Shown piece after piece: positions 818 to 31,280 of a stretch of 32,000 bases of DNA. Each line of letters starts with the position of its first letter. The stretch's first letter is position 1. This DNA comes from Kiritimatiella glycovorans. GTDB lineage: Bacteria > Verrucomicrobiota > Kiritimatiellia > Kiritimatiellales > Kiritimatiellaceae. Made by a program: the position numbers and the translations under genes. Below the pieces are notes generated by a model. It was not told the DNA's origin and ran no database searches. It worked only from the letters and a program-made list of their open reading frames with translations. The stretch covers positions 1,560,001 through 1,592,000 of the forward strand of contig NZ_CP010904.1 of the NCBI RefSeq assembly GCF_001017655.1, read 5' to 3'.

Positions 818-820
818 TTA

Positions 821-12616: not shown

Positions 12617-14505
12617 TCGAAATCCCACCGCCTGAGCACACGGCCCTTTCCGTCGAGCAGCTCGATCTCTTCCATTACTACGGGGTCCTCACCGCGGGGC
12701 ACATCGATACGCACCCCGATCAGTTCGTCCCCGACCTCAAAATCCATGATATAGTCATGCCGGCGCCCGTCGCCCTGAAGCCGGAATTCCGTACTCCGTT
12801 CCCTTCGAAACTGCCAGTCGCTGCGATCGGACCAGAAGAAGCGCCCCTGCCCTTCGCGCGAGCTGCGCGCCGTCCATCGCAGCGCCAGGCTTCCGGTCTC
12901 GCGCGGCAGCCCGCGCGTGGAGATCCCGCGTCCGGTGACGATCAGGGTGCCGGCGTCCGTCTCCGGCCATCCGCTGTGCCGGTCCGCTCCGTTCCATCCG
13001 GCGACGGGCAGCAGCGAGGGATCGTAATCGGGATTCGGGATCGGGGGACGATCACAGAGGGTCCTGTAATGGTCCTTCAGCATACGGGCCATTTGCCGTG
13101 TCCGCTCGGGATACTGTTCCGCCAGATTTTCCGTCTCGCCGAGGTCGGCCTCCAGGTTATAAAGCTGGTATCGGTCCGGATGCAGATCGGAGACGTAGAA
13201 ATTCTCGATCAGTTTCCAGTCGCCCATCCGAACCCAGCACCCGGCCGGCGAGCGCTCGCCGAAATTATGCGGGAAGAAGCAGTAGATCGCCTCGCGATCC
13301 GGCGGCGTGCCCGCCTTCAGGGTCGGGACCAGGCTCACGCCGTCGATCGTCTGGTCGGGATGCTTCGCGATACCGCACATCTCAAGCAGGGTGGGATAGT
13401 AATCGACCCCCGTGATGACCGCCTCGCTCACGCGTTCCCGGTCGGCGACCCCCGGCCAGCGGATCATCGCCGGCACGCGCGATCCTCCCTCGAAAATCGT
13501 CCCCTTTCCCTTCTTCAGCGGCGCATTGCTCGTGGCGGGGACCCCGCCGTCGGCCTTAACCCCTTTCCATTCGACCCCGCCGTTATCGGAGGTGAAGACG
13601 ATGATGGTATTCTCGTCGAGGCCGGCCTCCTCCAGGTAGTCGAGGATATCCCCGAGGCTCTCATCGACGCTGTGGATCATAGCCGCGTAGGTCGGACTCT
13701 TCTGGACGCCGCGCGGGTCCGGGTGATTCCGGTAGTACTCGATCAGATCCTCTTTGGCCTGAAACGGGCCGTGAACCCCCCAGTGCCAGAGACAGAGGAA
13801 GAACGGGCGGTCGTCCCGGCTCCTCAGAAACCCGAGCGCCTCATCGGTGGCGCGGTCGGTCAGGTATTCGCCCTCCGGGCCGTCCGTGACATTCCCCGCC
13901 CGGAAGCGGTAGGGCGAGAAGTAGCTCGGCGGGCCCGGATCGGGCGCGCCGTGAAACGTCGACTCAAACCCCTGTTCTTCGGGCCAGTACTCCGGCGCGA
14001 GGCCCATGTGCCACTTACCGACGAACCCCGTCCTGTACCCCGCGTCGCGGAACGCCTCGGCCAGGGTGTACTGATCGAGTTCGAGAACGCGGCGGCTGTA
14101 CGGGAGCAGGTATTCCGAGCCCACCGGCACATGTTCGCGCTGGTAGTCGGGATCGTCTTCGCGCTGCGGGGTATGGCCCCAGGCCGTCGTCATGCCGTGC
14201 CGGGCCGGGTACTGCCCGCTCATGATCGATGCCCGGCTGGGCGAACAGAGCGGACTGGCCGAGTAGGCGTTGACGAACCGGACGCTCGATTCCGCCAGCC
14301 GCTCCATGGCCGGGGTCGGATAGAACGTCGATCCGTAGACCGAGCTGTCCGTCCAGCCCATATCATCCACAAGAAAAAAGAGGACGTTGGGTGCATCCTC
14401 CTGCGCCCGCACCCCCCGGATCCCCCACGAGAGCGGGATGAGGAACACGGCGATCAGCATCCTGAAATAATTGCGCATGTAATCCTGTCTCCGGCTGCTT
14501 TTCAT
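12613..14505 (-). CDS. Formylglycine-dependent sulfatase, exported, with a ~150-aa C-terminal extra (beta-sandwich-like) domain
   Basis: Signal peptide (MRNYFRMLIAVFLIPLSWGIRGVRAQ). Motifs are LFFLVDDMGW, CSPSRASIMSGQYP, GKWHMG and FTSDNGG. The ATG at 14505-14503 overlaps the upstream TGA (14504-14502). An alternative start is the ATG at 14478. Confidence 0.9.
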   Translation of the reverse strand: MKSSRRQDYMRNYFRMLIAVFLIPLSWGIRGVRAQEDAPNVLFFLVDDMGWTDSSVYGSTFYPTPAMERLAESSVRFVNAYSASPLCSPSRASIMSGQYPARHGMTTAWGHTPQREDDPDYQREHVPVGSEYLLPYSRRVLELDQYTLAEAFRDAGYRTGFVGKWHMGLAPEYWPEEQGFESTFHGAPDPGPPSYFSPYRFRAGNVTDGPEGEYLTDRATDEALGFLRSRDDRPFFLCLWHWGVHGPFQAKEDLIEYYRNHPDPRGVQKSPTYAAMIHSVDESLGDILDYLEEAGLDENTIIVFTSDNGGVEWKGVKADGGVPATSNAPLKKGKGTIFEGGSRVPAMIRWPGVADRERVSEAVITGVDYYPTLLEMCGIAKHPDQTIDGVSLVPTLKAGTPPDREAIYCFFPHNFGERSPAGCWVRMGDWKLIENFYVSDLHPDRYQLYNLEADLGETENLAEQYPERTRQMARMLKDHYRTLCDRPPIPNPDYDPSLLPVAGWNGADRHSGWPETDAGTLIVTGRGISTRGLPRETGSLALRWTARSSREGQGRFFWSDRSDWQFRRERSTEFRLQGDGRRHDYIMDFEVGDELIGVRIDVPRGEDPVVMEEIELLDGKGRVLRRWDFE

Positions 14506-15749
14506 TCCCAGCGTTCGAAGTCCTCCTGCGCCATGCGGCAGACCTCGCGCGATTCGTCATACTCCTCGCGCAGGGCGCGAAGCTCGCGGAGGACGGAGGC
14601 GTGAGCGGGGTCGTCGGCCAGGTCGCGCATCTCCCACGGGTCGTCCTTCAGGTTGAACAGGCGGTCCGTTTCGCCCCGACGCTCATGGATCAGCTTGAAA
14701 TCGCCCCGGTAGATGACGCGGTGTTTCATGCGCGGCGTGGACGCCACCAGCCACTCGCGCCAGTCGCCCGCACCGCCTTCCACCAGCGGCCGGAAGCTCA
14801 TGTCGTGGTTGCGCGGCATGCGTTCGACCCCCGCGTAATCGCAGATCGTCGGCGCCATATCCAGTCCGCTCACCAGGTGTGTCCGGTCGCGGCGCGGCGC
14901 GGCGGACGGATCGACCACCGCCAGCGGGATGCGGAGACTGTGCTCATAGGGGGTGCCCTTGGTGAGGTGTCCGTGTTCGCCGCTGGCCTGGCCGTGGTCC
15001 GAGGAGAAGATGAAAATGGTGCGGTCGCGCTCCGGCGAGCGCTGAAAGGCGCGGTAGATCCGTCCGAGGTCCCCGTCGATCATCTCCACGAACCGGAAGT
15101 ACGCATGGGCGTAGAACCGCCATTCCAGCTCCGTCCAGTCCGTGGCCGCGCGTTCGGGATCGAAGTTCGGCGGCAGCGGGGGGAGGCGATCCCTTATCCG
15201 GTCCGCGATCCCGAACTTGCCCGGGCTGTACCTGAACGACCAGTAGCAGATGTCGTGGGGATTGAGCAGGCCGACGCTGAGAAAGAACGGGCGTTCGCCG
15301 CGGTGGTTCAGGAGAAAATCCTCCGCCGCCCGCGCGAGCGCCGTGTCGCCGTACTCGCCGACCGGATTCGAGCCGTGCAGCTGTTCAAACCCGCACTCCT
15401 GCGGCTTGATAGCAATGTGCCATTTACCCATGTAATACGAGTCGTATCCGCCCCGATCGCGCAGCCACGTCCCGAGATCCGTGGGATGGACCTCCTCGCG
15501 GTCGATCCAGCGCGGGTTCTCGGTGATCCCGCTCTGATCCGGTTCGAGCCCCGTATACCAGCTTGTGCGAGAGGGGACGCACACCGGGACGGTGGCGTAA
15601 TACCGGTCGAAGGAGACCGCGTCGTTCATGATGCGGTCCATGCCGGGGGTCCGGACCCGCTCGCAGCCGCAGGCCCCGATCGCGGACTGCTTGAGCTGGT
15701 CGACGTGGACGAAAACGATATTCGGTCTCCGGCTCATCTTACCCGCCAT
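14502..15749 (-). CDS. Formylglycine-type sulfatase without a recognisable signal peptide (probably cytoplasmic)
   Basis: The preferred start is the ATG at 15749 (MAGKMSRRPNIVFVHVDQL), with GAGGAGG upstream, 2 nt after the TGA of the preceding gene. Motifs are CVPSRTSWYTG (C-x-P-x-R), GKWHI and FSSDHGQ. The catalytic core starts about 10 residues after the Met, so there is no room for an export signal. Confidence 0.85.
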   Translation of the reverse strand: MAGKMSRRPNIVFVHVDQLKQSAIGACGCERVRTPGMDRIMNDAVSFDRYYATVPVCVPSRTSWYTGLEPDQSGITENPRWIDREEVHPTDLGTWLRDRGGYDSYYMGKWHIAIKPQECGFEQLHGSNPVGEYGDTALARAAEDFLLNHRGERPFFLSVGLLNPHDICYWSFRYSPGKFGIADRIRDRLPPLPPNFDPERAATDWTELEWRFYAHAYFRFVEMIDGDLGRIYRAFQRSPERDRTIFIFSSDHGQASGEHGHLTKGTPYEHSLRIPLAVVDPSAAPRRDRTHLVSGLDMAPTICDYAGVERMPRNHDMSFRPLVEGGAGDWREWLVASTPRMKHRVIYRGDFKLIHERRGETDRLFNLKDDPWEMRDLADDPAHASVLRELRALREEYDESREVCRMAQEDFERWE

Positions 15750-15751
15750 GG

Positions 15752-15961
15752 TCAGGCCTCCTCGATCCTGTTCAGGGCCCATCCGAGCTGCCCGTGGGTG
15801 ACAAAGAGCGTGCGGCGGTCCGCGTCCACCGCATAGTGCAGAGGTTCGATCCCGCGGCCGAGCTGCTCGTACACGCGCAGCTCGACCGGCCCGCCGGAGG
15901 TCTCGACCGCGACACCGCGCGCAAACCGCAGCACCTGATCGCGGCGCATGTTTGAAAGATC
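15752..15961 (-). pseudogene. 3' fragment of an IS-split gene (continues from 18745-19421)
   Basis: After in-silico removal of 15962-18752, the minus-strand frame runs ...EVPMDMMMDLS|NMRRDQVLRFARGV...NRIEEA* without a frameshift, giving 879 nt or 292 aa in total. The TGA at 15752-15754 lies 2 nt before the next sulfatase ATG. Confidence 0.85.
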
Positions 15962-16089
15962 GTAACTACTCAGGTAGCCCCACCATGGCGCTACCACTGG
16001 AACAATCGTAGACTACCCCCCCCGAGCGCAACAGAAAAAACCCGATTTTCTTCTGGACTCGGATCGCGTGGTCTTCTACGCTGCTGACC

Positions 16090-17001
16090 ATGGCACAGGC
16101 TATGGTCATTCAGGGGCGGAGAATCACGGACGGCGAGATCGCCTTGATCCGGGATTTGATGGCAGAGCATCGGGACTGGGGGCGTACCCGCCTGAGCGAA
16201 GAACTGTGCCGCTGCTGGAACTGGCGCAACGCGCAGGGCCGTATCAAGGACATGGCGGCGCGCTCCCTGCTGTTGAAGCTGGAGCGACGCGGATGCATCG
16301 AGTTGCCGGCGCGTCAACGCCCGTCTTCCAATCATTTCCGCAACCGGTGCGTGCCTGCCGTAGAACCTGCCGCCGAACCGATTCGCTCTGACCTGAGCGC
16401 ATTGCGGCCCCTGTCGGCAGACCTTGTCGCCCCACGTTCGGATAACTCGCAGTTGTTCAAAGGGCTGCTGGGCCGATACCACTACTTGGGCCATCGCAAC
16501 ACGGTGGGCGAGAACCTGCGCTATCTGATCCGCGACCGGCACGGTCGGCTCGTGGCCTGTGCGCTGTTCGGTTCGGCGGCATGGAAATGCGCGGATCGGG
16601 ATCGTTTCCTCGGCTGGGATCGGGCCTGCCGTGAACGCAATCTCCAGGCATTGACCAACAATACGCGTTTCCTGATCCTGCCCTGGGTCGAAGTCCCGCA
16701 TCTGGCCAGCCACGTCCTCGGCCTCATTGCCCGGCGCATCCGGGATGACTGGCAGGGCAAGTACGCTCATCCCGTGCATGCCTTGGAAACGTTCGTGGAC
16801 CGTTCCCGATTCAAAGGCACCTGCTACCGGGCCGCGAACTGGATGCGCCTGGGCGCAACGCAGGGGCGGACCCGCAACGATCGAGACCGCCGCATCCAGG
16901 CGCCGGTCAAGGACGTGTATCTGTATCCGCTCATCCCGGACTTCCGGCGGGAGTTGTGCGCACCCGCCTGCTCCCGAACCGAAGGGAGGGCGGGCAGGTG
17001 A
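16090..17001 (+). CDS. DUF4338-domain protein (DruA-like), IS-encoded accessory ORF
   Basis: 303 aa. The N-terminal winged-helix-like segment is RTRLSEELCRCWNWRNAQGRIKDMAARSLLLKLERRGCIELP. The C-terminal motif series is YHYLGHRNTVGENLRY, RDRFLGW, NNTRFLILPWV, LASHVLGL, LETFVDRSRFKGTCYRAANW. I recognise this as DUF4338 by motif recognition, not by a search. The TGA at 16999-17001 shares its A with the transposase ATG. Confidence 0.7.
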   Translation: MAQAMVIQGRRITDGEIALIRDLMAEHRDWGRTRLSEELCRCWNWRNAQGRIKDMAARSLLLKLERRGCIELPARQRPSSNHFRNRCVPAVEPAAEPIRSDLSALRPLSADLVAPRSDNSQLFKGLLGRYHYLGHRNTVGENLRYLIRDRHGRLVACALFGSAAWKCADRDRFLGWDRACRERNLQALTNNTRFLILPWVEVPHLASHVLGLIARRIRDDWQGKYAHPVHALETFVDRSRFKGTCYRAANWMRLGATQGRTRNDRDRRIQAPVKDVYLYPLIPDFRRELCAPACSRTEGRAGR

Positions 17002-18509
17002 TGACACGCCAAGAGGCCGAAGCGATCTACGACGCCGGCAAGGACACCGTCGTGCGGGTGCTGTTGATGATGGACGCACGAATCCATTCACTGGAGCGTC
17101 AAGTTCAAGACCTGACAAGCCGTCTTGACCAAAGCGATCAACGCGTCCGCCACCTGGAAGAGCAGCTTGCCAAGAACTCGCGCAACAGCAGCAAACCGCC
17201 CTCCAGCGACGGCTTCAAGAAACCTGCGCCCAAAAGCCTGCGCAAGAAGGGCAAGCGCAAGTCCGGCGGCCAGCCCGGCCATACCGGCCATACGCTCGCG
17301 ATGGCCGACAAGCCCGAGCACACCGAAGTGCACCGTGTGAAGGAATGCGAACACTGCGGCCGCTCTCTAGCCGATCAATCCGTCGAGGGCATCGAAAAGC
17401 GCCAAGTCCATGACCTGCCACCCCTGCGGCTGATCGTCACCGAGCACCAGGCCGAAACCAAAACCTGCGCGTGCGGCCATCTGAACAAAGCCGCGTTCCC
17501 CGAGGGGGTCAACGCTCCGGTGCAATACGGCGAGGGGATCAAGGCCGCGGCCGTATACCTGAAGAACTATCAGTTCCTGCCCTATGACCGAACCTGCGAA
17601 CTGCTGAATGACTTCTTCGGCTGCCCGATGAGCGAAGGCACGCTCTGCAATATCATCACCCAATCCCACACGTTGGCCGCCGACCCCGTCGAGAAGATCA
17701 AGGAGTTGATCGAGCAGGCCGCCGTGGCACACTTCGACGAGACCGGCTCACGGGTAGACGGCAAGCTGTGGTGGCTGCATTCGGCCTCGACCGCACAGGC
17801 AACCTATTATGACATCCATCGCAAACGCGGCCGCGAAGCGATCGATGACATCGGCATCTTGCCCGACTTCCTCGGACGCGCCGTTCACGACTTCTGGAAA
17901 CCGTACTTCGGCTACGACTGCCTCCATGGCCTCTGCAACGCCCATCACCTGCGGGAACTGATCTTTGCGCATGAGCAGCACCAGCAGGACTGGGCCGACC
18001 ACATGATCGACTGCCTGCTCGACATCAAAGAGGCCGTCGATCATGCGAAGCAGAGCACCGACCTGTCTGCGTGCAACGCACAGGCAGGCCATCTTGCGGC
18101 AGAGCAGATCCAAGCCTTTGAAGCCCGCTACCAGCAAGTCCTCGACGAAGGCTACGCGCAGAATCCGCTGCCGCCGTTGCCGCGCAACGCGAAGAAACGA
18201 CGGGGCCGCCGCAAGAAGACCAAAGCCCGTAACCTGCTCGAACGGCTCGACGAGCACCGCGATGAAGCGCTTGCGTTCATGTACGACTTCAACGTGCCCT
18301 TCGACAACAATCAGGCTGAGCGCGATCTGCGCATGATGAAGGTGCAGCAGAAAATCTCGGGCATGTTCCGAACCGAGGATGGCGCCCAAGCCTTCTGCCG
18401 CATTCGAAGCTACATCTCAACCGCCCGCAAGAATGCCGTCGGCGCTATGGATGCGCTGACCTGCCTGTTCAGCGGAAACCCCTTCGTTCCGGCGCTCAAT
18501 ACCTCGTAG
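17001..18509 (+). CDS. IS66-family transposase (TnpC-type)
   Basis: The ATG at 17001 is preceded by GAAGGGAGGG; the ORF track's 16956 start overlaps the upstream ORF. It has an N-terminal coiled-coil/leucine-zipper region (LERQVQDLTSRLDQSDQRVRHLEEQL) and a basic stretch followed by the zinc-finger-like CEHCG...C.CGH. The catalytic core has AHFDETG, WWLH, DFWKPY, CNAHHLREL and PFDNNQAERDLRMMK, typical of IS66 TnpC. TAG stop at 18507-18509. Confidence 0.92.
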   Translation: MTRQEAEAIYDAGKDTVVRVLLMMDARIHSLERQVQDLTSRLDQSDQRVRHLEEQLAKNSRNSSKPPSSDGFKKPAPKSLRKKGKRKSGGQPGHTGHTLAMADKPEHTEVHRVKECEHCGRSLADQSVEGIEKRQVHDLPPLRLIVTEHQAETKTCACGHLNKAAFPEGVNAPVQYGEGIKAAAVYLKNYQFLPYDRTCELLNDFFGCPMSEGTLCNIITQSHTLAADPVEKIKELIEQAAVAHFDETGSRVDGKLWWLHSASTAQATYYDIHRKRGREAIDDIGILPDFLGRAVHDFWKPYFGYDCLHGLCNAHHLRELIFAHEQHQQDWADHMIDCLLDIKEAVDHAKQSTDLSACNAQAGHLAAEQIQAFEARYQQVLDEGYAQNPLPPLPRNAKKRRGRRKKTKARNLLERLDEHRDEALAFMYDFNVPFDNNQAERDLRMMKVQQKISGMFRTEDGAQAFCRIRSYISTARKNAVGAMDALTCLFSGNPFVPALNTS

Positions 18510-18633
18510 CCTCTGCCGCGGATGAACGGACCTCGCCGATCCTACTCGCACTCGCCCCCTCGCAAATCCAGGCGGAGCCATCCCGACTTGCCGCCATCGT
18601 CTCGATCCCGTATAGCCCATCTGGAATCGGCTA

Positions 18634-18707
18634 ACGATAACGGGCGACGAGAACGGCTCACGAGTTGGAAGCGCCTATCGTCCACCGCTCTCGTCGCCCG
18701 TTATCGT
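18634..18707 (+). repeat. Perfect 19-bp inverted repeat (hairpin with 36-nt loop) in the 235-bp non-coding 3' tail of the IS
   Basis: ACGATAACGGGCGACGAGA (18634-18652) pairs with TCTCGTCGCCCGTTATCGT (18689-18707). Copy 2 carries one mismatch in the left arm (T to G). Confidence 0.85.
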
Positions 18708-18744
18708 CAACCGTCCTCTGGGAGAGGGGTACCTGAGTAGTCAC

Positions 18745-19421
18745 GAAAGATCCATCATCATGTCCATCGGCACCTCGCGCCCCGGATCGGCCGGGAAGCG
18801 CCGAACGGCATCGAAGAGCGTCCAGGGACACGTCAACGGGTGCCGGTGCTCGAACCGGTCCGTATGGCCATCCGATTCAACCTTCAACACCCCGGGCGAC
18901 GCCGTCCCGCGCTCGCGCCGGGTGTAGCCCGCCTTCGGCTTCGTGTGGCTGCACGTCCAGTCCAGCTCGTACGAGCGAACGGAGGCCGGCCGGTCCTCCC
19001 GGCACGCGATGCGGGCCCGGACCTCCTCCGGCACGCCGGCGGGCTCAAAGATCATCCGGACGTCGCAGTCGGTCGAGCCGTGCGCGCGGGTGACGGCCAC
19101 CTGGCCGAAGATCACGTTTGACATCGGCGAGCGGGCGCGCTGTTTCCTGTACCCCGGCGTGGCTGAAAAACGGAGCATATCATAGACCGCCGTCCATCCC
19201 CCCGCATCATCCATGCGGCCCTCCGGCGGTGAAAAGGCCTCAATGTACCCCGCGAGCATCCGCAGCTCCTCCGGCGGAGTCTTCGCCCCCGGACTCAGCG
19301 GGAACGAGTCCGGCCTGACCCCCAGCTCCGCGGCGCGCACCTGACGGGCCCGAAGCATGCCGAGACTCAGGACGGCCCCCGCCCCCCCGATGTGACGCTG
19401 CATGAAATCGCGACGATCCAT
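18745..19421 (-). pseudogene. 5' fragment of the IS-split gene: Tat-signal exported protein of unknown function
   Basis: The ATG at 19421 (MDRRDFMQRHIGGAGAVLSLGMLRARQVRAAE, twin-arginine signal) is preceded by GGAGAGGAG. As it stands, the frame terminates at a TGA supplied by the IS end (18741-18743). See the 15752-15961 fragment for the continuation. Confidence 0.85.
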
Positions 19422-19544
19422 TTCTCGGCTCCTCTCCCGCACTTGCGGAGATCATGATAATAACGATGAATCTTAACGGGCATGCAGGACCGCAATCAAG
19501 AAAATAATTTTACACGCAATTTAGGGGTTTACGGATCAAAAGAC

Positions 19545-19573
19545 TTATCAGATACTTTTGCACCAAATACAAT
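19545..19573 (+). promoter_or_regulatory. Candidate sigma70-like promoter for the 802-aa gene, within an AT-rich divergent intergenic island (19443-19651)
   Basis: TTATCA (19545-19550), N17, TACAAT (19568-19573), about 80 nt upstream of the GTG at 19652. This is a hexamer match only. Confidence 0.3.
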
Positions 19574-19651
19574 GCGGTATCACAAAGGAAATATGTATAT
19601 GCAACTTTCTGTACCTGACCAAGAGGCCCGGATGCGGGCGGGAGGTGACTC

Positions 19652-22060
19652 GTGGGTCTGAAAACCTGGTTGCTCGCGCTGTTGACGACGGCGGCCGCTG
19701 CGTCGCAGGCCGGACCGGATGGCTATCCCCGGCCGATGCTTTTCAGGGAAAATTTCCCGAAGCTGCTTTCACACTACGACCACATTCAGCTGATGGTCTC
19801 CGACCTGCACGTCGACAAGCGGAAATTCTCGTCGGTCCGGTTCAAGCGCGAACACCCCGACGCGGTGGTGCTGGTGCAGATCAATAACGAACCGACGGGG
19901 ATCTGGGGCACATGGGAGATGCTGCCGCGTCAGCGGATCGAGGACTACGGGTGGCTCGACCCGGAGGTCCGTGACACCTCCCCGCTGATGGAGATCTTCG
20001 AGTACGACATCCATCCCCTCATGGATTTTCCGGGCCACTGGGTCTATGAGACCGGGGCGGAGACGCGGGATTCGATCCCCGCTGACGCCGAAACGATTAC
20101 GGTGGGGGTCGGGGACATGACTCCCTTCCTCCCGCTGACCCACCGCCTGAGTAAAAAGGTGGCGAAGGCGCACCCGGAGATCACGAACGCCCTGCTCAAG
20201 GACGTGGTCATCTACACCCGGGGGACGGACGAAAAACCCGACTGGCTCAATGCGGATATGGGAAGCCTCGTGGCGATCGACCCCGCGGCGCGCACCGTCA
20301 CGATCCGTCGCTGGGACGCCCGCGAAAACCGTCATGCCTTTGACGCCGGGGCGGTGGTCGCACCGGGCGCGGTGCCGGTCATCGTCGAAAACGCGGGGGT
20401 CGTCCGGAGCTTCCCCCCGCATCTGCGCGAATCGATGAAGCAGGCGGTGGTGGTGAAACCGTTCATGCCCAACCTCACCCCATTCTGCCCGGTCGATCCG
20501 CGCACCGGCCTGAACGCCGCCGAAACCATGGCCCGGCATTACGCCGCAATGCGCCGCAGGCACTATCCGAACATCGACGGATACGTCTTCGACGTCTCGT
20601 GCGGGACGCATACGCCCTCGCACCGCGTGTCGAACCGCGTGGACTGCGACAACGACGGGGAGATCGACAACTTCCAGTTCGACGGCGTGCTCGCCTGGCC
20701 GGTGGGCATAAGTGAGTTCGCCACGCTCCTTCGCAAGGGCAAGCCGGGACATTTCAAGGGACTCGGGCGCGACTTCCGCATGGTCTCGGATTCGAATTTC
20801 AACGAGGACCAGCGGCTTTTCGAGGTACTGAACGGAGGCGAGTACGAACACAGCTTCACGCTTTTCTTCCCCCCCTACGAGTACATGTACTCCAGCAATC
20901 TCGACCGCTGGCTGCTCTGGGAGGATCGGGGACGCGACCCGAACCTCTCTTTCGTACACAATAAATACGCCGATGAGGTCCACCACGGAGGCGAGGCCGC
21001 CGACCTCGAACGCCCAGCCACGCTGGCGCACTTCCGGCTCGACATGGCCACCGCCTGCATGGGATCGGGATACGTCGGCAAGATGGTGCTTCGCCCGGCG
21101 CACGGCGGGAACACGGAGGAGGTGAAGTATCCGGGGCTCGAGGAGGAGCGGGCGCGGTACGGGGGCATGCTGCCGAAGATCTACGATGAATACCACGCCG
21201 GCCGCGGCGAGTTCGGCTGGCTGGGGCTTCCCGAGGGCGATCCCGTCCGCGTAACCACTCACCTGAGCAAGCCGGTCTACGCGTTCACGCGGCAGTCGCC
21301 GATGCCCGCCGTCCGCATGGAAAGGCCGCCGTGGCGTCTTTCTGAACCGGAGCGCACCCGGACCGGGGACGGATTCAGCTTCCGGGTCCGCGAACGCGGA
21401 CTCTGGCGTCAGCTGAAGGACAGTTTCCGGGCCACCGTGGCCCTTCCGCTCCCCGGGGTTGAACTGGAACGTAACCGGGAGTACACCCTCTCCTTCAAAC
21501 TCCGCGGATCGCCGGTCTACGACCGCTTCGGACGCGCCCACCGGAATATTCCTAAAAACATGCGTCTGCGTTTTATCACGGACCGGGACGGCGGGAAGCA
21601 GAGCGACCGTGCGGCGGAGGAACTCAACACCAACGTCGGCCAGCTCCTGGGCGGCGGACAGAGCGGCGGCGGTTACATGCAGGAGGTTCTGGTCTTTCCG
21701 CGCGAACGGAAGGTGGTCCTGACACTGATCGCCGGGGGGAGCGGTCCCGCTCAAATCGAATTCGGCGTGACGGAGGAACCGGGAAACTACGAGATTTCCG
21801 ATCTGCGACTGCGCGAGGGTTGTGCCGATGTCCTGGTTCGCGAATTCGAGCACGGGCTGGTCCTGCTCAACGGCTCCGTCTTTTCGGAGGCCGTCGTCGA
21901 CCTGCGCAAACTGTTCCCGGACGCGGCGTTCCGCCGCATCCGGGGCACCCAGGATCCCGTACACAACAGCGGGAAACCTGCCCGCGTCGTCACGATCAGC
22001 GCCTCCGACGGATTATTCCTGGAGCGCGAAGATCGGGCGGTGTCCGTGCGGAAGAAATAG
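19652..22060 (+). CDS. Large secreted protein of unknown function (possible TIM-barrel glycoside-hydrolase-like fold)
   Basis: 802-aa ORF. The GTG start has GGAGG 6 nt upstream. Signal peptide MGLKTWLLALLTTAAAASQA. Coding-like GC3. The motifs NIDGYVFDV, DCDNDGEIDNFQFDG and the C-terminal REFEHGLVLLNGS are reminiscent of GH114/GHL-type hypothetical glycosidases, but I cannot place it. TAG stop at 22058-22060. Confidence 0.7.
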   Translation: MGLKTWLLALLTTAAAASQAGPDGYPRPMLFRENFPKLLSHYDHIQLMVSDLHVDKRKFSSVRFKREHPDAVVLVQINNEPTGIWGTWEMLPRQRIEDYGWLDPEVRDTSPLMEIFEYDIHPLMDFPGHWVYETGAETRDSIPADAETITVGVGDMTPFLPLTHRLSKKVAKAHPEITNALLKDVVIYTRGTDEKPDWLNADMGSLVAIDPAARTVTIRRWDARENRHAFDAGAVVAPGAVPVIVENAGVVRSFPPHLRESMKQAVVVKPFMPNLTPFCPVDPRTGLNAAETMARHYAAMRRRHYPNIDGYVFDVSCGTHTPSHRVSNRVDCDNDGEIDNFQFDGVLAWPVGISEFATLLRKGKPGHFKGLGRDFRMVSDSNFNEDQRLFEVLNGGEYEHSFTLFFPPYEYMYSSNLDRWLLWEDRGRDPNLSFVHNKYADEVHHGGEAADLERPATLAHFRLDMATACMGSGYVGKMVLRPAHGGNTEEVKYPGLEEERARYGGMLPKIYDEYHAGRGEFGWLGLPEGDPVRVTTHLSKPVYAFTRQSPMPAVRMERPPWRLSEPERTRTGDGFSFRVRERGLWRQLKDSFRATVALPLPGVELERNREYTLSFKLRGSPVYDRFGRAHRNIPKNMRLRFITDRDGGKQSDRAAEELNTNVGQLLGGGQSGGGYMQEVLVFPRERKVVLTLIAGGSGPAQIEFGVTEEPGNYEISDLRLREGCADVLVREFEHGLVLLNGSVFSEAVVDLRKLFPDAAFRRIRGTQDPVHNSGKPARVVTISASDGLFLEREDRAVSVRKK

Positions 22061-22080
22061 ACGGGCCCTCCCCGTTTTTC
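22061..22080 (+). terminator. Weak candidate intrinsic terminator
   Basis: ACGGG (22061-22065), loop CCCTC, CCCGT (22071-22075), then TTTTT (22076-22080), immediately after the stop codon. The stem is only 5 bp. Confidence 0.35.
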
Positions 22081-22158
22081 AACACTCGGAACAGGGGGCA
22101 GTCCTCCCGATTCGTTTATCTGTCCTTTGCGCGGGAGAAAGAAAGAGCGGAGGACAAC

Positions 22159-22303
22159 CATGAAGGCGGGAAGGGCATGAAGCGTAATAATCCTCATGCC
22201 CTTCATGTCCTTCATGGTGAATCCCATTCTCTCCCCACCCAATCAACCTTCATGCTCTTCATGCCCTTCATGGTGAATCCCATTCTTTCTCCCTCCCACG
22301 CGG
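22159..22303. repeat. Short dispersed/tandem repeat block built from CTTCATG(C/T)CCTTCATGGTGAATCCCATTCT units and their inverted partner
   Basis: CCTTCATGGTGAATCCCATTCT occurs at about 22209-22230 and 22266-22287. The inverted partner CATGAAGGCGGGAAGGGCATGAAG lies at 22159-22182. The block ends in CTCCCTCCCACGCGG (22289-22303), which recurs at 23511-23525. Confidence 0.75.
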
Positions 22304-23510: not shown

Positions 23511-23535
23511 CTCCCTCCCACGCGGAATATAGTTT

Positions 23536-23564
23536 TTGCCAAGCGGTTACGCGCCTGCTATAAA
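23536..23564 (+). promoter_or_regulatory. Near-consensus sigma70-type promoter upstream of the HD-GYP-like gene
   Basis: TTGCCA (23536-23541), N17, TATAAA (23559-23564). AGGAGG follows at 23572-23577 and the ATG at 23582. It lies 11 bp outside the right-hand 15-bp direct repeat of the IS30 element. Confidence 0.45.
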
Positions 23565-23581
23565 CGCGGCCAGGAGGCTGT

Positions 23582-24649
23582 ATGTGTCCGCTAAGATTCA
23601 GCGAATTACGTCGCCGTGCGGCGGGACAGGAGTCCGGCCCCGCGGAAAAAAAAGAACAGCCTGAGCCGGAAGCCGCGCAGGAACCTCCGCGCGGTGAAGA
23701 CGTGCAGGAGCACGCCTCCTCCTCTTCCGGAAAGATCGGCATCGAGAGTGCGATCGAAGAGATGGGCATCACGGCCGAAGCGATCGATGGGAGCGCGCTG
23801 TTCAAGGCCCGCCGCGATGCCGCCGAGCTGCTCGGTCAGCTCCGCTCCGACGAGGGACTCAACCTGGGATGGCGTGATATCGCCGGGGTCATTGAGCGCC
23901 TCGACGCCGCGATGGAGACCGAACTCGGCGCCTTCTGGGCCGAGGTACTCCGCATGCCCGAACACGGGGACGCCTCCTGAGAACGGCATGTTCTCAACAG
24001 CATCATCGTCGTCCTGCATCTGGCACGCGCGCTCAAGCTCCCGCGGCGCGATCAGATCGGCCTCGGGGCCGCCGCCCTGATTCATGACATCGGGGCGGGA
24101 CAGGGCGTATCGCTTCAGGACGTGGAGGGAAGCGACGAGCGTAATGCGCTGGAGAAGACGGCCCACATCGCCCGGAGGCTGGGCGCGCCGGACCGGATGC
24201 TGCGCGCGCTCACCGAATGCAAGGAGCGTGCGGACGGGTCGGGTACGCCGAATCACCTCCGCGGCAGTCAGATCAGCTCCGAAGGACAGCTCCTGGGCCT
24301 CGCATGCGAATTCGAGCGGGTCTACCGCGAACAGTGGGAGCACTTCGAATCGAGCGGCGAACCCTTTGCTCCGGTGATGGTGATGCTCAAGCGCAATCGC
24401 GACCGCTTTGCGCCGGACGTGCTGAAGGCCCTCCTGCTCGCGGGCGGATTCTACCAGGTGGGCGCGATCGTCGAACTCAACAGCGGCGCGCTCGCCCGCG
24501 TCGTCTCACAGAATCGCGGCGCGCCGCTGCGTCCCCTTGTCGAGATCGTTCTCGACCGGCACGGCAACCATCCCGAACGGCGCCAGATGCTCGACCTGCG
24601 CGAACATCCCGCGCTGTCGATTGTCCGTACCGTCACGAGGGGAGGATGA
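23582..24649 (+). pseudogene. Degenerate HD-GYP-like domain protein interrupted by one in-frame TGA (23978-23980)
   Basis: ORFs 23582-23980 and 23981-24649 are in the same frame. The stretch between the TGA and the first possible start (GTG 24122) encodes HVLNSIIVVLHLARALKLPRRDQIGLGAAALIHDIG, which is the HD signature region. Downstream, CKERADGSGTPNHL corresponds to HHExxDGxGYP with substitutions. Only the first ORF has a good RBS. Confidence 0.7.
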
Positions 24650-24656
24650 TATCCCG

Positions 24657-27632: not shown

Positions 27633-27874
27633 CGTTCGACTCTCCTCTTCGGTGCTGATTTCTTTAACGGTCCCGTTTCACAGCTGTCTCAAAACGGATC
27701 GATCCGATAGAACGCCTTCGGCTCATCCGTCAGTTCAATCCGTGTTGTAACTACTCAGGTAGCCCCACCATGGCGCTACCACTGAAACAATCGTAGTCTA
27801 CCCCCCCCGAGCGCAACAGAAAAAACCCGATTTTCTGCTGGACTCGGATCGCGTGGTCTTCTACGCTGCTGACC

Positions 27875-28786
27875 ATGGCACAGGCTATGGTCATTCAGGG
27901 GCGGAGAATCACGGACGGCGAGATCGCCTTGATCCGGGATTTGATGGCAGAGCATCGGGACTGGGGGCGTACCCGCCTGAGCGAAGAACTGTGCCGCTGC
28001 TGGAACTGGCGCAACGCGCAGGGCCGTATCAAGGACATGGCGGCGCGCTCCCTGCTGTTGAAGCTGGAGCGACGCGGATGCATCGAGTTGCCGGCGCGTC
28101 AACGCCCGTCTTCCAATCATTTCCGCAACCGGTGCGTGCCTGCCGTAGAACCTGCCGCCGAACCGATTCGCTCTGACCTGAGCGCATTGCGGCCCCTGTC
28201 GGCAGACCTTGTCGCCCCACGTTCGGATAACTCGCAGTTGTTCAAAGGGCTGCTGGGCCGATACCACTACTTGGGCCATCGCAACACGGTGGGCGAGAAC
28301 CTGCGCTATCTGATCCGCGACCGGCACGGTCGGCTCGTGGCCTGTGCGCTGTTCGGTTCGGCGGCATGGAAATGCGCGGATCGGGATCGTTTCCTCGGCT
28401 GGGATCGGGCCTGCCGTGAACGCAATCTTCAGGCATTGACCAACAATACGCGTTTCCTGATCCTGCCCTGGGTCGAAGTCCCGCATCTGGCCAGCCACGT
28501 CCTCGGCCTCATTGCCCGGCGCATCCGGGATGACTGGCAGGGCAAGTACGCTCATCCCGTGCATGCCTTGGAAACGTTCGTGGACCGTTCCCGATTCAAA
28601 GGCACCTGCTACCGGGCCGCGAACTGGATGCGCCTGGGCGCAACGCAGGGGCGGACCCGCAACGATCGAGACCGCCGCATCCAGGCGCCGGTCAAGGACG
28701 TGTATCTGTATCCGCTCATCCCGGACTTCCGGCGGGAGTTGTGCGCACCCGCCTGCTCCCGAACCGAAGGGAGGGCGGGCAGGTGA
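27875..28786 (+). CDS. DUF4338-domain protein (DruA-like), copy 2
   Basis: The protein is identical to the copy 1 ORF, with one synonymous CTC/CTT difference. Confidence 0.7.
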   Translation: MAQAMVIQGRRITDGEIALIRDLMAEHRDWGRTRLSEELCRCWNWRNAQGRIKDMAARSLLLKLERRGCIELPARQRPSSNHFRNRCVPAVEPAAEPIRSDLSALRPLSADLVAPRSDNSQLFKGLLGRYHYLGHRNTVGENLRYLIRDRHGRLVACALFGSAAWKCADRDRFLGWDRACRERNLQALTNNTRFLILPWVEVPHLASHVLGLIARRIRDDWQGKYAHPVHALETFVDRSRFKGTCYRAANWMRLGATQGRTRNDRDRRIQAPVKDVYLYPLIPDFRRELCAPACSRTEGRAGR

Positions 28787-30294
28787 TGACACGCCAAGAG
28801 GCCGAAGCGATCTACGACGCCGGCAAGGACACCGTCGTGCGGGTGCTGTTGATGATGGACGCACGAATCCATTCACTGGAGCGTCAAGTTCAAGACCTGA
28901 CAAGCCGTCTTGACCAAAGCGATCAACGCGTCCGCCACCTGGAAGAGCAGCTTGCCAAGAACTCGCGCAACAGCAGCAAACCGCCCTCCAGCGACGGCTT
29001 CAAGAAACCTGCGCCCAAAAGCCTGCGCAAGAAGGGCAAGCGCAAGTCCGGCGGCCAGCCCGGCCATACCGGCCATACGCTCGCGATGGCCGACAAGCCC
29101 GAGCACACCGAAGTGCACCGTGTGAAGGAATGCGAACACTGCGGCCGCTCTCTAGCCGATCAATCCGTCGAGGGCATCGAAAAGCGTCAAGTCCATGACC
29201 TGCCACCCCTGCGGCTGATCGTCACCGAGCACCAGGCTGAAACCAAAACCTGCGCTTGCGGCCATCTGAACAAAGCCGCGTTCCCCGAAGGGGTCAACGC
29301 TCCCGTGCAATACGGCGAGGGGATCAAGGCTGCGGCCGTGTACCTGAAGAACTATCAGTTCCTGCCCTATGACCGAACCTGCGAACTGCTGAATGACTTC
29401 TTCGGCTGCCCGATGAGCGAAGGCACGCTCTGCAATATCATCACCCAATCCCACACGTTGGCCGCCGACCCCGTCGAGAAGATCAAGGAGTTGATCGAGC
29501 AGGCCGCCGTGGCACACTTCGACGAGACCGGCTCACGGGTAGACGGCAAGCTGTGGTGGCTGCATTCGGCCTCGACCGCACAGGCAACCTATTATGACAT
29601 CCATCGCAAACGCGGCCGCGAAGCGATCGATGACATCGGCATCTTGCCCGACTTCCTCGGACGCGCCGTTCACGACTTCTGGAAACCGTACTTCGGCTAC
29701 GACTGCCTCCATGGCCTCTGCAACGCCCATCACTTGCGCGAACTGATCTTTGCGCATGAGCAGCACCAGCAGGACTGGGCCGACCACATGATCGACTGCC
29801 TGCTCGACATCAAAGAGGCCGTCGATCATGCGAAGCAGAGCACCGACCTGTCTGCGTGCAACGCACAGGCAGGCCATCTTGCGGCAGAGCAGATCCAAGC
29901 CTTTGAAGCCCGCTACCAGCAAGTCCTCGACGAAGGCTACGCGCAGAATCCGCTGCCGCCGTTGCCGCGCAACGCGAAGAAACGACGGGGCCGCCGCAAG
30001 AAGACCAAAGCCCGTAACCTGCTCGAACGGCTCGACGAGCACCGCGATGAAGCGCTTGCGTTCATGTACGACTTCAACGTGCCCTTCGACAACAATCAGG
30101 CTGAGCGCGATCTGCGCATGATGAAGGTGCAGCAGAAAATCTCGGGCATGTTCCGAACCAAGGATGGCGCCCAAGCCTTCTGCCGCATTCGAAGCTACAT
30201 CTCAACCGCCCGCAAGAATGCCGTCGGCGCTATGGATGCGCTGACCCGCCTGTTCAGCGGAAACCCCTTCGTTCCGGCGCTCAATACCTCGTAG
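28786..30294 (+). CDS. IS66-family transposase (TnpC-type), copy 2
   Basis: It differs from copy 1 by two amino acids (E to K in FRT[E/K]DGAQ and C to R in LT[C/R]LFS) plus nine synonymous changes. Confidence 0.92.
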   Translation: MTRQEAEAIYDAGKDTVVRVLLMMDARIHSLERQVQDLTSRLDQSDQRVRHLEEQLAKNSRNSSKPPSSDGFKKPAPKSLRKKGKRKSGGQPGHTGHTLAMADKPEHTEVHRVKECEHCGRSLADQSVEGIEKRQVHDLPPLRLIVTEHQAETKTCACGHLNKAAFPEGVNAPVQYGEGIKAAAVYLKNYQFLPYDRTCELLNDFFGCPMSEGTLCNIITQSHTLAADPVEKIKELIEQAAVAHFDETGSRVDGKLWWLHSASTAQATYYDIHRKRGREAIDDIGILPDFLGRAVHDFWKPYFGYDCLHGLCNAHHLRELIFAHEQHQQDWADHMIDCLLDIKEAVDHAKQSTDLSACNAQAGHLAAEQIQAFEARYQQVLDEGYAQNPLPPLPRNAKKRRGRRKKTKARNLLERLDEHRDEALAFMYDFNVPFDNNQAERDLRMMKVQQKISGMFRTKDGAQAFCRIRSYISTARKNAVGAMDALTRLFSGNPFVPALNTS

Positions 30295-30491
30295 CCTCTG
30301 CCGCGGATGAACGGACCTCGCCGATCCTACTCGCACTCGCCCCCTCGCAAATCCAGGCGGAGCCATCCCGACTTGCCGCCATCGTCTCGATCCCGTATAG
30401 CCCATCTGGAATCGGCTAACGAGAACGGGCGACGAGAACGGCTCACGAGTTGGAAGCGCCTATCGTCCACCGCTCTCGTCGCCCGTTATCG

Positions 30492-31280
30492 TCAACCGTC
30501 CTCTGGGAGAGGGGTACCTGAGTAGTCACCCTGGCGGTTTATCGTGTAATGGGAAATGGCCTGAAGGTTCGGGCGGTGGCTCAGGGTGTCGCGCTGGATC
30601 CAGTCATAATGAAAACCGGCGGCATTCGTGTTTCCTCCCCTGTACAGGGTCTGAAACGTATACCGGAGGACTTCGTCCTCCGGGACCGTATGCCGGTAGT
30701 ACTGACGCCCTCCTCCGCTTTCGCCCACGCCGGCATTTTCGGGGTAATTGATATAATGCTGCATTTCCGCGAAGTCCGGGCTTCCGGCCTCGTCGCGCAG
30801 ATAGGAGGCGGCAAAACCTCCCCATGCGCTCCGATGATCCACCACAAGGTCCGCCGCTCCCGGAAACGCATTGCTGACGGATATATCCGTACTCCGGATG
30901 ACGCCTTTTTCCACTCCGGCATAATAGGGCACGGAGACCTCCCAGACGCCGCGCATCGGCGAAAACCCCGCCGGCCGTCCGGAAGCGTCGACTGTGAGTC
31001 CCGCATTGCGGTTATGCGTTTCGAACACCGCACCGACCTGCCGCTCGTCATCGCCGGGCGCCGCCATAAACCCGAATTCATGCGTCTCGTTGACGCCCCA
31101 CGTCTCATCCGGCGCATAGGTGAGGCTGAGTACATTCGTGGCGGAGGCCCCGGTCGAGAAGTGACCCGTTTCCGGAGAGGTGGAGAGGAATCCCATGTGT
31201 GCCGACGGGATGATCACGCGATCGCTCACGGTGTCGTCCAGTGCACGAAAATCCTGTGAACAGGCCAGCGCGAGCCGCAC
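30492..31280 (-). pseudogene. Hypothetical protein gene whose 3' end is replaced by IS sequence (genuine part 30530-31280 or longer)
   Basis: The minus-strand frame enters the IS right IR at 30529, so the last 13 codons (GDYSGTPLPEDG*) are IS-derived. There is no signal peptide and no RBS at the GTG at 31280. The frame is continuous with the upstream ORF except for a single TGA at 31317-31319. Confidence 0.6.

What the first reader, a model, noticed from the sequence alone, without database searches (positions are those of the whole stretch)
15962..18744. IS66-family element carrying a translationally coupled DUF4338 (DruA-like) gene in place of the canonical TnpA/TnpB pair; two recent copies
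Seen: there are two 2,783-bp copies (15962-18744 and 27747-30529) with GTAA-type 19-bp IRs, and copy 1 has an 8-bp TSD. Inside, a 303-aa ORF ends in a TGA that shares one base with the ATG of a 502-aa TnpC-type transposase (GTGATGA at 16998-17004), with GAAGGGAGGG just upstream, so the two are almost certainly co-translated. The 303-aa ORF carries the motif series I associate with DUF4338 (YHYLG, RDRFLGW, NNTRFLILPWV, LETFVD..RF.GTCYRAANW) after a winged-helix-like N-terminus. Of 12 coding differences between the copies, 10 are synonymous, and the DUF4338 protein is 100% conserved, which argues that both ORFs are under selection. Established: classical IS66 elements encode tnpA-tnpB-tnpC, the ISBst12 subgroup encodes tnpC alone, and DUF4338 is the signature domain of the Druantia defence protein DruA with unknown biochemistry. 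Inference: this is a distinct IS66 lineage using a DNA-binding DUF4338 protein as an accessory factor for targeting, regulation or immunity. It links a defence-system domain to transposition.
Basis: partly seen in the sequence, partly recalled or inferred. Interest (0 to 1): 0.75.

Follow-up and report, generated by a model that had tools for sequence, protein, structure and literature searches.

The report
Transposon carrying a Mom-like DNA-modifier gene
This is a live jumping gene (IS66 family) whose transposase gene is always preceded by, and translationally coupled to, a conserved gene annotated as the defence protein DruA; that gene has an acetyltransferase (GNAT) fold most like the phage Mu DNA-modifying enzyme Mom, and it partners with transposases of at least ten unrelated families.

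Summary
Two 2,783-bp copies differ at 16 bases and have GTAAC-type inverted repeats. Copy 1 has an 8-bp target duplication and splits a host gene. A 303-aa PF14236 (DUF4338/DruA) ORF has a stop that overlaps the ATG of a 502-aa IS66 TnpC. The host is Kiritimatiella glycovorans, with at least nine intact copies.

The ORF is an N-terminal three-helix domain plus a GNAT fold (AlphaFold pLDDT 90). Its only characterised sequence relative is Mom of phage Mu, and Mom's key His-Tyr, Ser and Tyr residues are conserved. Homologues number in the thousands. In 131 related loci the ORF lies directly upstream of a transposase and usually overlaps it, or is fused to it. The partners are IS66 (three lineages, one also with TnpB), ISKra4, IS1182, IS1634, IS4/Tn5, IS701, ISAzo13, IS630 and ISAs1. 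It is under purifying selection, is far more conserved than its partners, and has switched partners repeatedly. No Druantia genes are nearby.

Best reading: a portable transposase-partner module, probably a nucleic-acid-modifying enzyme. The biochemistry is inferred. I found no literature on this, and ISfinder could not be queried.

The parts
15954..15961 (.). Left copy of the 8-bp target-site duplication GAAAGATC (copy 1)
   Evidence: removing the IS and one repeat restores a 302-aa ORF
15962..18744 (+). IS66-family element, copy 1 (2,783 bp)
   Evidence: a gap-free repeat of 27747-30529 with 16 differences
15962..15980 (+). Left terminal inverted repeat GTAACTACTCAGGTAGCCC
   Evidence: The same GTAACT[A/G]CTCAGG ends bound 14 related elements
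16090..17001 (+). ORF1, 303 aa. N-terminal three-helix domain (aa 1-70), linker, and DUF4338/DruA-family GNAT domain (aa ~105-290). Conserved H131, Y132, R193, S207, E233, Y246
   Evidence: Pfam PF14236 at 3.5e-38. AlphaFold2 pLDDT 90.4. The Foldseek PDB top 50 are all GNATs. Mom link
16981..16990 (+). Shine-Dalgarno-like GAAGGGAGGG inside the 3' end of ORF1, upstream of the tnpC ATG
   Evidence: A GGAG-type motif also precedes the junction in relatives
16999..17003 (+). Stop/start overlap TGATG (ORF1 TGA 16999-17001, tnpC ATG 17001-17003)
   Evidence: In 22 complete pairs the overlap is 1-17 nt in 18
17001..18509 (+). tnpC, 502-aa IS66-family DDE transposase. DUF6444 aa 26-98, zf-IS66 aa 114-158, DDE_Tnp_IS66 aa 175-464
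18628..18713 (.). Subterminal imperfect palindrome (36-nt arms) with core GGCGACGAGAACGG; function unknown
   Evidence: The core is shared with type-2 elements L021/L024/L030
18726..18744 (-). Right terminal inverted repeat (reverse complement GTGACTACTCAGGTACCCC)
18745..18752 (.). Right copy of the target-site duplication GAAAGATC
18745..19442 (-). 5' part of the host gene split by copy 1. The listed 233-aa ORF ends at a stop formed inside the IS end. The 3' part lies at 15752-15961
27747..30529 (+). IS66-family element, copy 2 (2,783 bp), no target duplication. ORF1 27875-28786, tnpC 28786-30294, palindrome 30413-30498

Best explanation
The feature is an active IS66-family insertion sequence of Kiritimatiella glycovorans. 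Its transposase gene (tnpC) is translationally coupled to an upstream accessory gene.

The accessory protein has two parts: a small helical, probably DNA-binding, N-terminal domain and a GNAT-fold catalytic domain (DUF4338/'DruA'). The only characterised sequence relative of that GNAT domain is Mom of phage Mu, which transfers glycine from Gly-tRNA to adenine N6 in double-stranded DNA.

The accessory gene is a portable, self-contained 'transposase-partner' module. It always lies immediately 5' of a DDE transposase gene, overlapping it or fused to it. It is found with at least ten IS families and has switched partners repeatedly.

Proposed mechanism (inferred): the protein is made with the transposase, at the element. 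It binds DNA and modifies nucleic acid, most likely DNA bases, in or around the element, using acyl or aminoacyl transfer. This either gates transposition, as Dam methylation does for IS10/IS50, or shields the element's DNA from host nucleases.

Shown: the anatomy, the activity of the element, the fold, the conservation and the partner range. Inferred: the substrate, the chemistry and the benefit to the element.
For: Active IS:
- Two near-identical copies, inverted repeats, an 8-bp duplication and a restored host ORF.
- At least 9 intact ORF1 loci in the genome, 7 with an adjacent TnpC accession.

Domains and fold:
- PF14236 at 3.5e-38, and IS66 TnpC.
- AlphaFold2 pLDDT 90.4, and the top 50 PDB Foldseek hits are all GNATs. 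An independent GNAT call for DUF4338 is in PMC10853773.

Link to Mom:
- Pfam Mom (PF25680) is the only other GNAT family hit, in 38 of 75 family members, best E 1.7e-6.
- hhalign of the ORF1 family against the Mom family gives E 1.5e-3 over 154 colinear columns.
- In reciprocal HMM searches, 208/280 and 115/120 sequences hit, against 6-17 reversed or shuffled controls.
- Mom residues H58, Y59, S124 (essential) and Y159 align with the conserved H131, Y132, S207 and Y246 (residue roles from PMC13219725).

Coupling to the transposase:
- The overlap is 1-17 nt in 18 of 22 complete pairs.

Partner range:
- 35 of 54 genome loci have an IS66 TnpC downstream.
- Of 77 downstream ORFs (74 metagenome and 3 viral-contig loci), 54 are IS66, 7 ISKra4, 4 IS1182, 2 IS1634 and 1 IS4.
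- Fusions exist to Tn5-like, DDE_Tnp_1, IS701, ISAzo13, IS630, IS66 and ISAs1 transposases.

Selection and module exchange:
- ORF1 dN/dS is about 0.1-0.2.
- ORF1 identity stays at 64-83% where the partner TnpCs are below 30% identical.
- Partner families are interleaved in the ORF1 tree.
- Inverted repeats co-vary with TnpC, not with ORF1.
Against: - The Mom relationship is remote. The window ORF itself scores only E 0.19 against Pfam Mom. The ORF1 profile does not retrieve the Mom chain 8BV8 from PDB sequences. 8BV8 is not among the 50 listed Foldseek hits, which are generic GNATs.
- Mom's essential R111 and R151 have only nearby, not aligned, arginines. Mom's HTH-like insertion is absent.
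- The N-terminal domain has no significant structural match; the best E is about 1, to Lrp/AsnC and DeoR wHTH domains.
- No modification, no DNA binding and no effect on transposition has been measured.
- A protein or small-molecule acyltransferase, or a passenger function, fits the data almost as well.
- Canonical IS66 elements transpose without this gene, so it cannot be essential for IS66 chemistry.
- The module is very rare in phages (5 loci in 2.9 million viral contigs) and in plasmids (2 of 72,556). That argues against a Mom-style role in horizontal-transfer anti-restriction.
Confidence: 0.5

Rival explanations
1. ORF1 is a protein acetyltransferase acting as a regulator. It would acetylate the transposase or a host nucleoid or replication factor that many DDE transposases depend on. 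That would set transposase activity or couple it to cell physiology through acetyl-CoA levels.
For: GNAT fold with a conserved beta5 Glu (E233) and alpha4 Tyr (Y246), the usual positions of the general base and acid. The top PDB matches include the protein acetyltransferases RimI, Gcn5 and Naa60. N-terminal fusions to transposases suit a cis-acting regulator.
Against: No canonical acetyltransferase Pfam family is hit; only DruA and Mom are. The canonical R/Q-x-x-G-x-G/A CoA loop is replaced by VPHLAS, as in Mom. One conserved enzyme would have to recognise transposases of about ten unrelated families, or an unidentified common host factor.
Confidence: 0.2
2. ORF1 is host-beneficial cargo: a one-gene defence, anti-restriction or DNA-marking function that the IS merely carries (a 'transporter IS'). 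It would be selected because it helps the host or the vehicle DNA, not transposition.
For: The family is shared with Druantia DruA. Mom's known role is restriction evasion (PMC13219725). A phage carries a stand-alone 224-aa DUF4338 GNAT. ORF1 is more conserved than the transposase and moves between IS lineages.
Against: Cargo genes are not normally placed 5' of the transposase with a stop/start overlap, and they are not fused to its N-terminus. No DruB-E is present. Carrying 9 or more copies per genome is unnecessary for a host function. The module is rare on plasmids and phages.
Confidence: 0.15
3. ORF1 is a selfish hitch-hiker or decaying remnant with no present function for the IS. On this view the coupling is only a historical accident of one successful lineage.
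For: Canonical IS66 and ISBst12-type elements transpose without it (established knowledge). Internal-deletion derivatives that lose most of ORF1 still keep both inverted repeats (L042, L047).
Against: ORF1 is intact in all listed K. glycovorans copies, with substitutions only outside the GNAT core. dN/dS is about 0.1-0.2 across phyla. Catalytic-type residues are invariant. The same arrangement arose with many transposase families.
Confidence: 0.05

Closest known systems
IS66 family insertion sequences (canonical tnpA-tnpB-tnpC; ISBst12 group with tnpC alone)
   Same: The DDE TnpC matches NF033517 and PF03050 with the zf-IS66 finger. The inverted repeats start with GTAA. The target duplication is 8 bp. 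The genes are translationally coupled. There are multiple copies per genome.
   Different: There is no tnpA or tnpB. A 303-aa HTH-like plus GNAT gene precedes tnpC instead. TnpC has a DUF6444 N-terminus rather than the LZ_Tnp_IS66 one. It is not the ISBst12 layout, because there are two genes. In Acidobacteriota the same gene coexists with tnpB.
DruA of type I Druantia (druABCDE)
   Same: It belongs to the same Pfam family, PF14236/DUF4338. NCBI's pipeline names the IS gene 'Druantia anti-phage system protein DruA'.
   Different: The match to the PADLOC DruA model is weak and partial (E 1e-4, 54 aa). No DruB-E is in the element or the window. The gene lies inside IS ends and is paired with a transposase.
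Mom of bacteriophage Mu (PDB 8BV8), a Gly-tRNA-dependent adenine-N6 DNA modifier
   Same: It has a GNAT fold and is the only characterised family with detectable sequence similarity. The motif blocks are colinear and H-Y, Ser and Tyr are conserved. Both are carried by DDE-transposing elements.
   Different: The similarity is remote. It lacks Mom's residue 175-209 insertion. It has an extra N-terminal domain. Mom sits at the end of a phage genome under elaborate late control, not upstream of the transposase.
Other IS-encoded helper proteins (IS21 IstB, IS66 TnpA/TnpB, IS3 OrfA, IS200/605 TnpB) and Dam control of IS10/IS50
   Same: It is a second gene co-expressed with the transposase. The idea that DNA modification state gates transposition has a precedent in Dam methylation of IS10/IS50 ends and promoters (established knowledge).
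   Different: None of those helpers is a GNAT, and none is shared by about ten IS families. In IS10/IS50 the modifying enzyme is supplied by the host, not encoded by the element.

Membership tests
IS66 family | DDE transposase of the TnpC type | tested here: met
   NF033517 at 7e-97 (324.9 bits, cut-off 180); PF03050 at 1.9e-48; zf-IS66 at 3.2e-7
IS66 family | Terminal inverted repeats beginning 5'-GTAA and an 8-bp target duplication | tested here: met
   GTAACTACTCAGGTAGCCC / GTGACTACTCAGGTACCCC. GAAAGATC is duplicated at copy 1 and the host ORF is restored on removal. Copy 2 and most related contigs lack a duplication
IS66 family | Accessory genes tnpA and tnpB upstream of tnpC | tested here: not met
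   ORF1 and tnpC are the only ORFs in the element with a family match; ORF1 matches PF14236, not PF05717. A relative with tnpB plus ORF1 plus tnpC exists (L036-L038)
ISBst12 subgroup of IS66 | A single ORF (tnpC only) | tested here: not met
   There are two coupled ORFs. The phylogenetic position of this TnpC relative to ISBst12 was not tested because no ISBst12 sequence was available
Type I Druantia / DruA | DUF4338 (PF14236) domain | tested here: met
   E 3.5e-38, 131.9 bits, cut-off 27
Type I Druantia / DruA | Match to a DruA-specific defence model | tested here: inconclusive
   PADLOC PDLC00002 at E 1.1e-4, 19.5 bits, covering only aa 138-191
Type I Druantia / DruA | Operon with druB, druC, druD and the DruE helicase | tested here: not met
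   The gene is enclosed by IS ends together with a transposase. The ten largest window ORFs have no Druantia hit in PADLOC
GNAT superfamily | GNAT alpha/beta fold | tested here: met
   Model pLDDT 90.4. All 50 listed of the 72 PDB Foldseek hits with E <= 1e-3 are GNATs, prob 1.00, TM (target) 0.5-0.69
GNAT superfamily | Acyl-CoA (or other acyl donor) binding and transfer | not testable with these tools
   Only residue conservation is available: E233, Y246 and S207
Mom family (PF25680) | Significant match to the family model | tested here: inconclusive
   The window ORF scores E 0.19, 11.8 bits against a cut-off of 27.1. 38 of 75 relatives hit, best E 1.7e-6. hhalign E 1.5e-3. Reciprocal HMM enrichment over controls. 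No hit to 8BV8 by profile
Mom family (PF25680) | Catalytic and important residues R111, S124, R151, H58, Y59, Y159 (PMC13219725) | tested here: inconclusive
   H131, Y132, S207 and Y246 align and are conserved. R111 falls in a gap next to the invariant R193. R151 aligns to S239, which is flanked by R238 and R240
Mom family (PF25680) | HTH-like insertion (residues ~175-209) and Gly-tRNA-dependent adenine modification of dsDNA | tested here: not met
   The insertion region of Mom aligns to gaps in ORF1. The chemistry itself cannot be tested with these tools

The most novel reading that the evidence does not exclude
DUF4338 proteins would be DNA-modifying enzymes of the Mom type, transferring an acyl or aminoacyl group to bases in duplex DNA. 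Insertion sequences of ten or more DDE families would have recruited them again and again as a universal, transposase-independent helper. The helper would mark the element's own or nearby DNA to gate transposition or to hide it from host nucleases. By extension, DruA would be the self-marking modification component of type I Druantia, and would descend from, or have given rise to, this transposon module.
Probability: 0.25. Interest if true: 0.9.

Novelty: new variant of a known kind. Interest (0 to 1): 0.72.

Why it matters
IS accessory proteins are few, and most are specific to one family. This is a single conserved enzyme module, represented by thousands of sequences (9,033 representatives at 50% identity with E<=1e-3). 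It is coupled or fused to transposases of about ten unrelated families, which implies a general need in DDE transposition that no one has described.

It also gives the first concrete biochemical lead for DUF4338/DruA, the uncharacterised first gene of type I Druantia: a Mom-like GNAT with conserved His-Tyr, Ser and Tyr residues. Simple experiments can test this, namely nucleoside mass spectrometry, SMRT kinetics and point mutants.

There is a practical consequence as well. NCBI's pipeline labels these IS genes 'Druantia anti-phage system protein DruA', so single-gene counts of defence content in environmental genomes (PVC bacteria, Acidobacteriota and others) are inflated by transposon genes.

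Tried and rejected
- Exact-sequence look-up of ORF1 contigs found nothing. I used the cluster member list for the within-genome census instead.
- A fold search of the isolated N-terminal domain gave no significant hit. The winged-helix label is therefore kept as 'plausible' only.
- The ORF1 profile against PDB sequences did not retrieve Mom.
- I considered a programmed -1 frameshift fusing ORF1 to TnpC. The tnpC frame is open from 16956, but I saw no slippery heptamer when I read that 45-nt overlap (sequence shown), so I set the idea aside.
- I considered the two copies plus the 9-kb interval as a composite transposon. I rejected this because copy 1 has its own duplication inside a single split gene.
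- No sigma70-type promoter was detected in the element. The consensus may not apply to this phylum.
- I looked for target duplications around 19 related elements in MAG and metagenome contigs and found essentially none. I attribute this to assemblies that are chimeric at repeats, so I drew no conclusion on target specificity.
- Searches of the held literature for DUF4338, PF14236, DruA with IS66, ISBst12, and GNAT with IS found nothing linking this domain to transposases.
- ISfinder and TnPedia could not be queried, and the FEMS 2014 IS review is not held.
Full report
**1. The observation**

The window holds two gap-free 2,783-bp copies, 15962-18744 and 27747-30529. They differ at 16 positions, and their flanks are unrelated. 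The ends are GTAACTACTCAGGTAGCCC and, on the other strand, GTGACTACTCAGGTACCCC.

Copy 1 is flanked by GAAAGATC on both sides. Deleting the element and one repeat joins two minus-strand fragments into one 302-aa ORF. This is therefore a genuine insertion into a gene. Copy 2 has no duplication.

ORF1 (16090-17001, 303 aa) ends in a TGA that shares its A with the ATG of ORF2 (17001-18509, 502 aa). GAAGGGAGGG lies 11-20 nt upstream of that ATG. Twelve of the 16 differences are coding and ten of those are synonymous. The ORF1 proteins are identical.

**2. Identity of the two genes**

- ORF2 is an IS66-family TnpC: NF033517 at 7e-97, PF03050, zf-IS66 and a DUF6444 N-terminus.
- ORF1 matches Pfam PF14236 (DUF4338, now named DruA) at 3.5e-38 over aa 66-264. 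It matches the PADLOC DruA model only weakly (1e-4, 54 residues).
- The ten largest ORFs of the window have no Druantia component.
- The organism is Kiritimatiella glycovorans. Its 2.95-Mb genome encodes at least nine full-length ORF1 loci in four protein variants, and the substitutions lie outside the GNAT core. Seven of these loci have a TnpC with the neighbouring accession number.
- The 'degraded passenger' refutation therefore fails.

**3. What ORF1 is**

AlphaFold2, run on a 75-sequence alignment, gives pLDDT 90.4. The model has a beta-hairpin plus three helices (aa 1-70), a poorly ordered linker, and an alpha/beta domain (aa ~105-290).

All of the top 50 Foldseek PDB matches to that domain are GNAT acyltransferases: SpeG, RimI, FeeM, AHL synthases and Gcn5. 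This agrees with a remark in PMC10853773 that DUF4338 is a GNAT. The N-terminal domain on its own has no significant structural neighbour. The best, non-significant, matches are Lrp/AsnC and DeoR winged helices.

Besides DruA, the only Pfam family that members of the alignment hit is Mom (PF25680): 38 of 75 members, best E 1.7e-6. The window ORF itself scores only 0.19. Three further tests bear on the link:

- Profile-profile comparison with a Mom alignment gives E 1.5e-3 over 154 colinear columns.
- Reciprocal HMM searches hit 208/280 and 115/120 sequences, against 6-17 for reversed or shuffled controls.
- Silva et al. 2026 (PMC13219725) showed that Mom transfers glycine from Gly-tRNAGly to adenine N6 in dsDNA. 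In Mom, R111, S124 and R151 are essential, and H58, Y59 and Y159 are important.

In the alignment, H58, Y59, S124 and Y159 correspond to H131, Y132, S207 and Y246. These are invariant or nearly invariant in the ORF1 family. The two arginines have only nearby counterparts, and Mom's HTH-like insertion is missing.

I regard homology to Mom as probable and a shared type of chemistry as possible. Neither is proven. The ORF1 profile does not retrieve 8BV8.

**4. How general the arrangement is**

ORF1 has at least 8,000 close relatives, mostly on 1-3-kb contigs, and the top 120 are at least 74% identical. In the library clustered at 50% identity it has 9,033 representatives.

*Genome loci.* Of 54 loci from many phyla, 35 have an IS66 TnpC directly downstream. 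In 22 complete pairs the stop/start overlap is 1-17 nt in 18. The partner TnpCs fall into lineages that are only 22-25% identical to each other and have different ends (GTAACTACTCAGG versus GTAACCGTTCACGG). The ORF1s stay 64-83% identical. In Acidobacteriota, ORF1 sits between tnpB and a canonical LZ-type tnpC.

*Metagenome and viral loci.* A profile-based metagenome scan gave 80 more loci at 43-79% identity, and a viral-contig scan gave 5. Of the 77 downstream ORFs scored (74 metagenome and 3 viral-contig loci):

| Partner family | Downstream ORFs |
|---|---|
| IS66 | 54 |
| ISKra4 | 7 |
| IS1182 | 4 |
| IS1634 | 2 |
| IS4 | 1 |
| Short or truncated, unassigned | 9 |

*Fusions.* Single polypeptides join the whole ORF1 module to Tn5-like, other DDE_Tnp_1, IS701 (DDE_5), ISAzo13, IS630, IS66 and ISAs1 transposases.

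*Tree.* A neighbour-joining tree of ORF1 interleaves the partner families. It places the second IS66 lineage at three positions inside the first (no support values).

*Selection.* ORF1 dN/dS is about 0.1-0.2, with dS saturated.

*Distribution.* The module is almost absent from sequenced plasmids (2 of 72,556) and viral contigs (5 loci). One of those viral loci is a stand-alone 224-aa phage version without the N-domain.

**5. Interpretation**

Three points are secure:

- This is an active IS66-family element.
- Its upstream gene is a conserved, selected GNAT enzyme.
- That gene is a portable partner of DDE transposases in general, not a substitute for IS66 TnpA/TnpB.

The gene's constant position immediately 5' of the transposase, the overlaps and the fusions all point to one requirement. 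The protein has to be made with the transposase and at the element. Its indifference to transposase family suggests that it acts on something common to all of them, and DNA is the obvious candidate.

Taking the Mom resemblance into account, I propose a DNA-bound acyl- or aminoacyl-transferase that modifies bases in or near the element. The effect would be to gate transposition or to protect the element. This step is inference. I give about 0.45 to nucleic-acid modification and about 0.75 to 'helper of the element rather than cargo'.

Rival readings are a protein acetyltransferase regulator (0.2), host-beneficial cargo (0.15) and a functionless hitch-hiker (0.05).

**6. Comparison and novelty**

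The element passes the IS66 tests for transposase, ends and duplication. It fails the tnpA/tnpB feature and the single-gene ISBst12 layout. ORF1 belongs to the Pfam DruA family but is not part of a Druantia system. Its membership of the Mom family is inconclusive.

I found no paper in the held library that links DUF4338/DruA to transposases. NCBI calls the transposase simply 'IS66 family transposase' and calls ORF1 'Druantia anti-phage system protein DruA'. ISfinder could not be searched, so individual elements may already be catalogued.

I rate this a new variant of a known kind, that is, an IS with a new class of helper. Its wider implication is a general transposon-associated DNA-modifier that also explains DruA. 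That would be of high interest if confirmed.

Noticed in passing
window 17402-17555: Seven of the 16 differences between the two copies fall in this 154-bp stretch of tnpC, and all are synonymous. This looks like a gene-conversion patch from a third, more diverged copy rather than independent mutation.
   Followed up: no
window 27739-27746 and 30530-30537: Copy 2 has no target duplication (TCCGTGTT / CCTGGCGG). With nine or more copies in the genome, recombination between copies is the likely cause. The two direct copies also bracket about 9 kb (18745-27746) that could be deleted or duplicated.
   Followed up: partly
window 18628-18713 (and 30413-30498); L021 3302-3388, L024 2720-2731, L030 2913-2924: A subterminal palindrome with core GGCGACGAGAACGG lies near the right end. 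The core also occurs in elements whose TnpC is only ~23% identical and whose inverted repeats differ. It is absent from closer relatives with short right ends. It could be a shared protein-binding module or a mosaic 3' segment.
   Followed up: partly
window 816-986: About five tandem 36-37-nt units, each holding the palindrome GCCGAGCTGGAGCTCGGC (a REP-like array), lie downstream of the 74-817 ORF.
   Followed up: no
window 22189-22292: Two 48-nt direct repeats 56 nt apart (AATCCTCATGCCCTTCATGTCCTTCATGGTGAATCCC...), 88% identical, lie in an intergenic stretch.
   Followed up: no
window 15752-15961 and 18745-19442 (minus strand): The host gene split by copy 1 would encode about 300 aa with a Tat-like N-terminus (RRDFMQ...). 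Its function was not examined. The neighbouring ORF 14502-15782 carries a sulfatase CxPSR motif.
   Followed up: partly
P0211, P0224, P0250 (library proteins): The ORF1 module is also fused to non-transposase domains: an adenylate/guanylate cyclase domain (P0211) and DUF6788 (P0224, P0250).
   Followed up: no
L060 4932-5606 (134-kb viral contig): A phage encodes a stand-alone 224-aa DUF4338 GNAT without the N-terminal domain (hhalign Prob 99.2 to the ORF1 family). It is similar in size to Mom and sits next to a large structural-looking gene.
   Followed up: partly
L042 3840-5077; L047 3832-4821: These are internal-deletion derivatives (1,238 and 990 bp). They keep both inverted repeats but join the 5' part of ORF1 to the 3' end of tnpC. 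They are non-autonomous, MITE-like relics.
   Followed up: no
related elements in L005, L010, L012, L016, L027, L061-L076 and others: Almost none of 19 related elements with both ends on a contig shows a target duplication. Flanks are often A/T-rich. Chimeric assembly at repeats is the likely cause, but an unusual transposition outcome is not excluded.
   Followed up: partly
L056 and L057 (one 42.7-kb viral contig): The same ORF1/IS66 unit lies in inverted orientation at both ends of a single contig classed as viral.
   Followed up: no
K. glycovorans locus tags L21SP4_01315-01372: Five of the nine listed copies lie within about 57 genes of one another, the two in this window included. This suggests local hopping or an IS-rich island.
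   Followed up: no
window 22350-23459 (minus strand): There is a weak PADLOC match to a CARF-domain model (E 1.5e-5, 60 residues).
   Followed up: no
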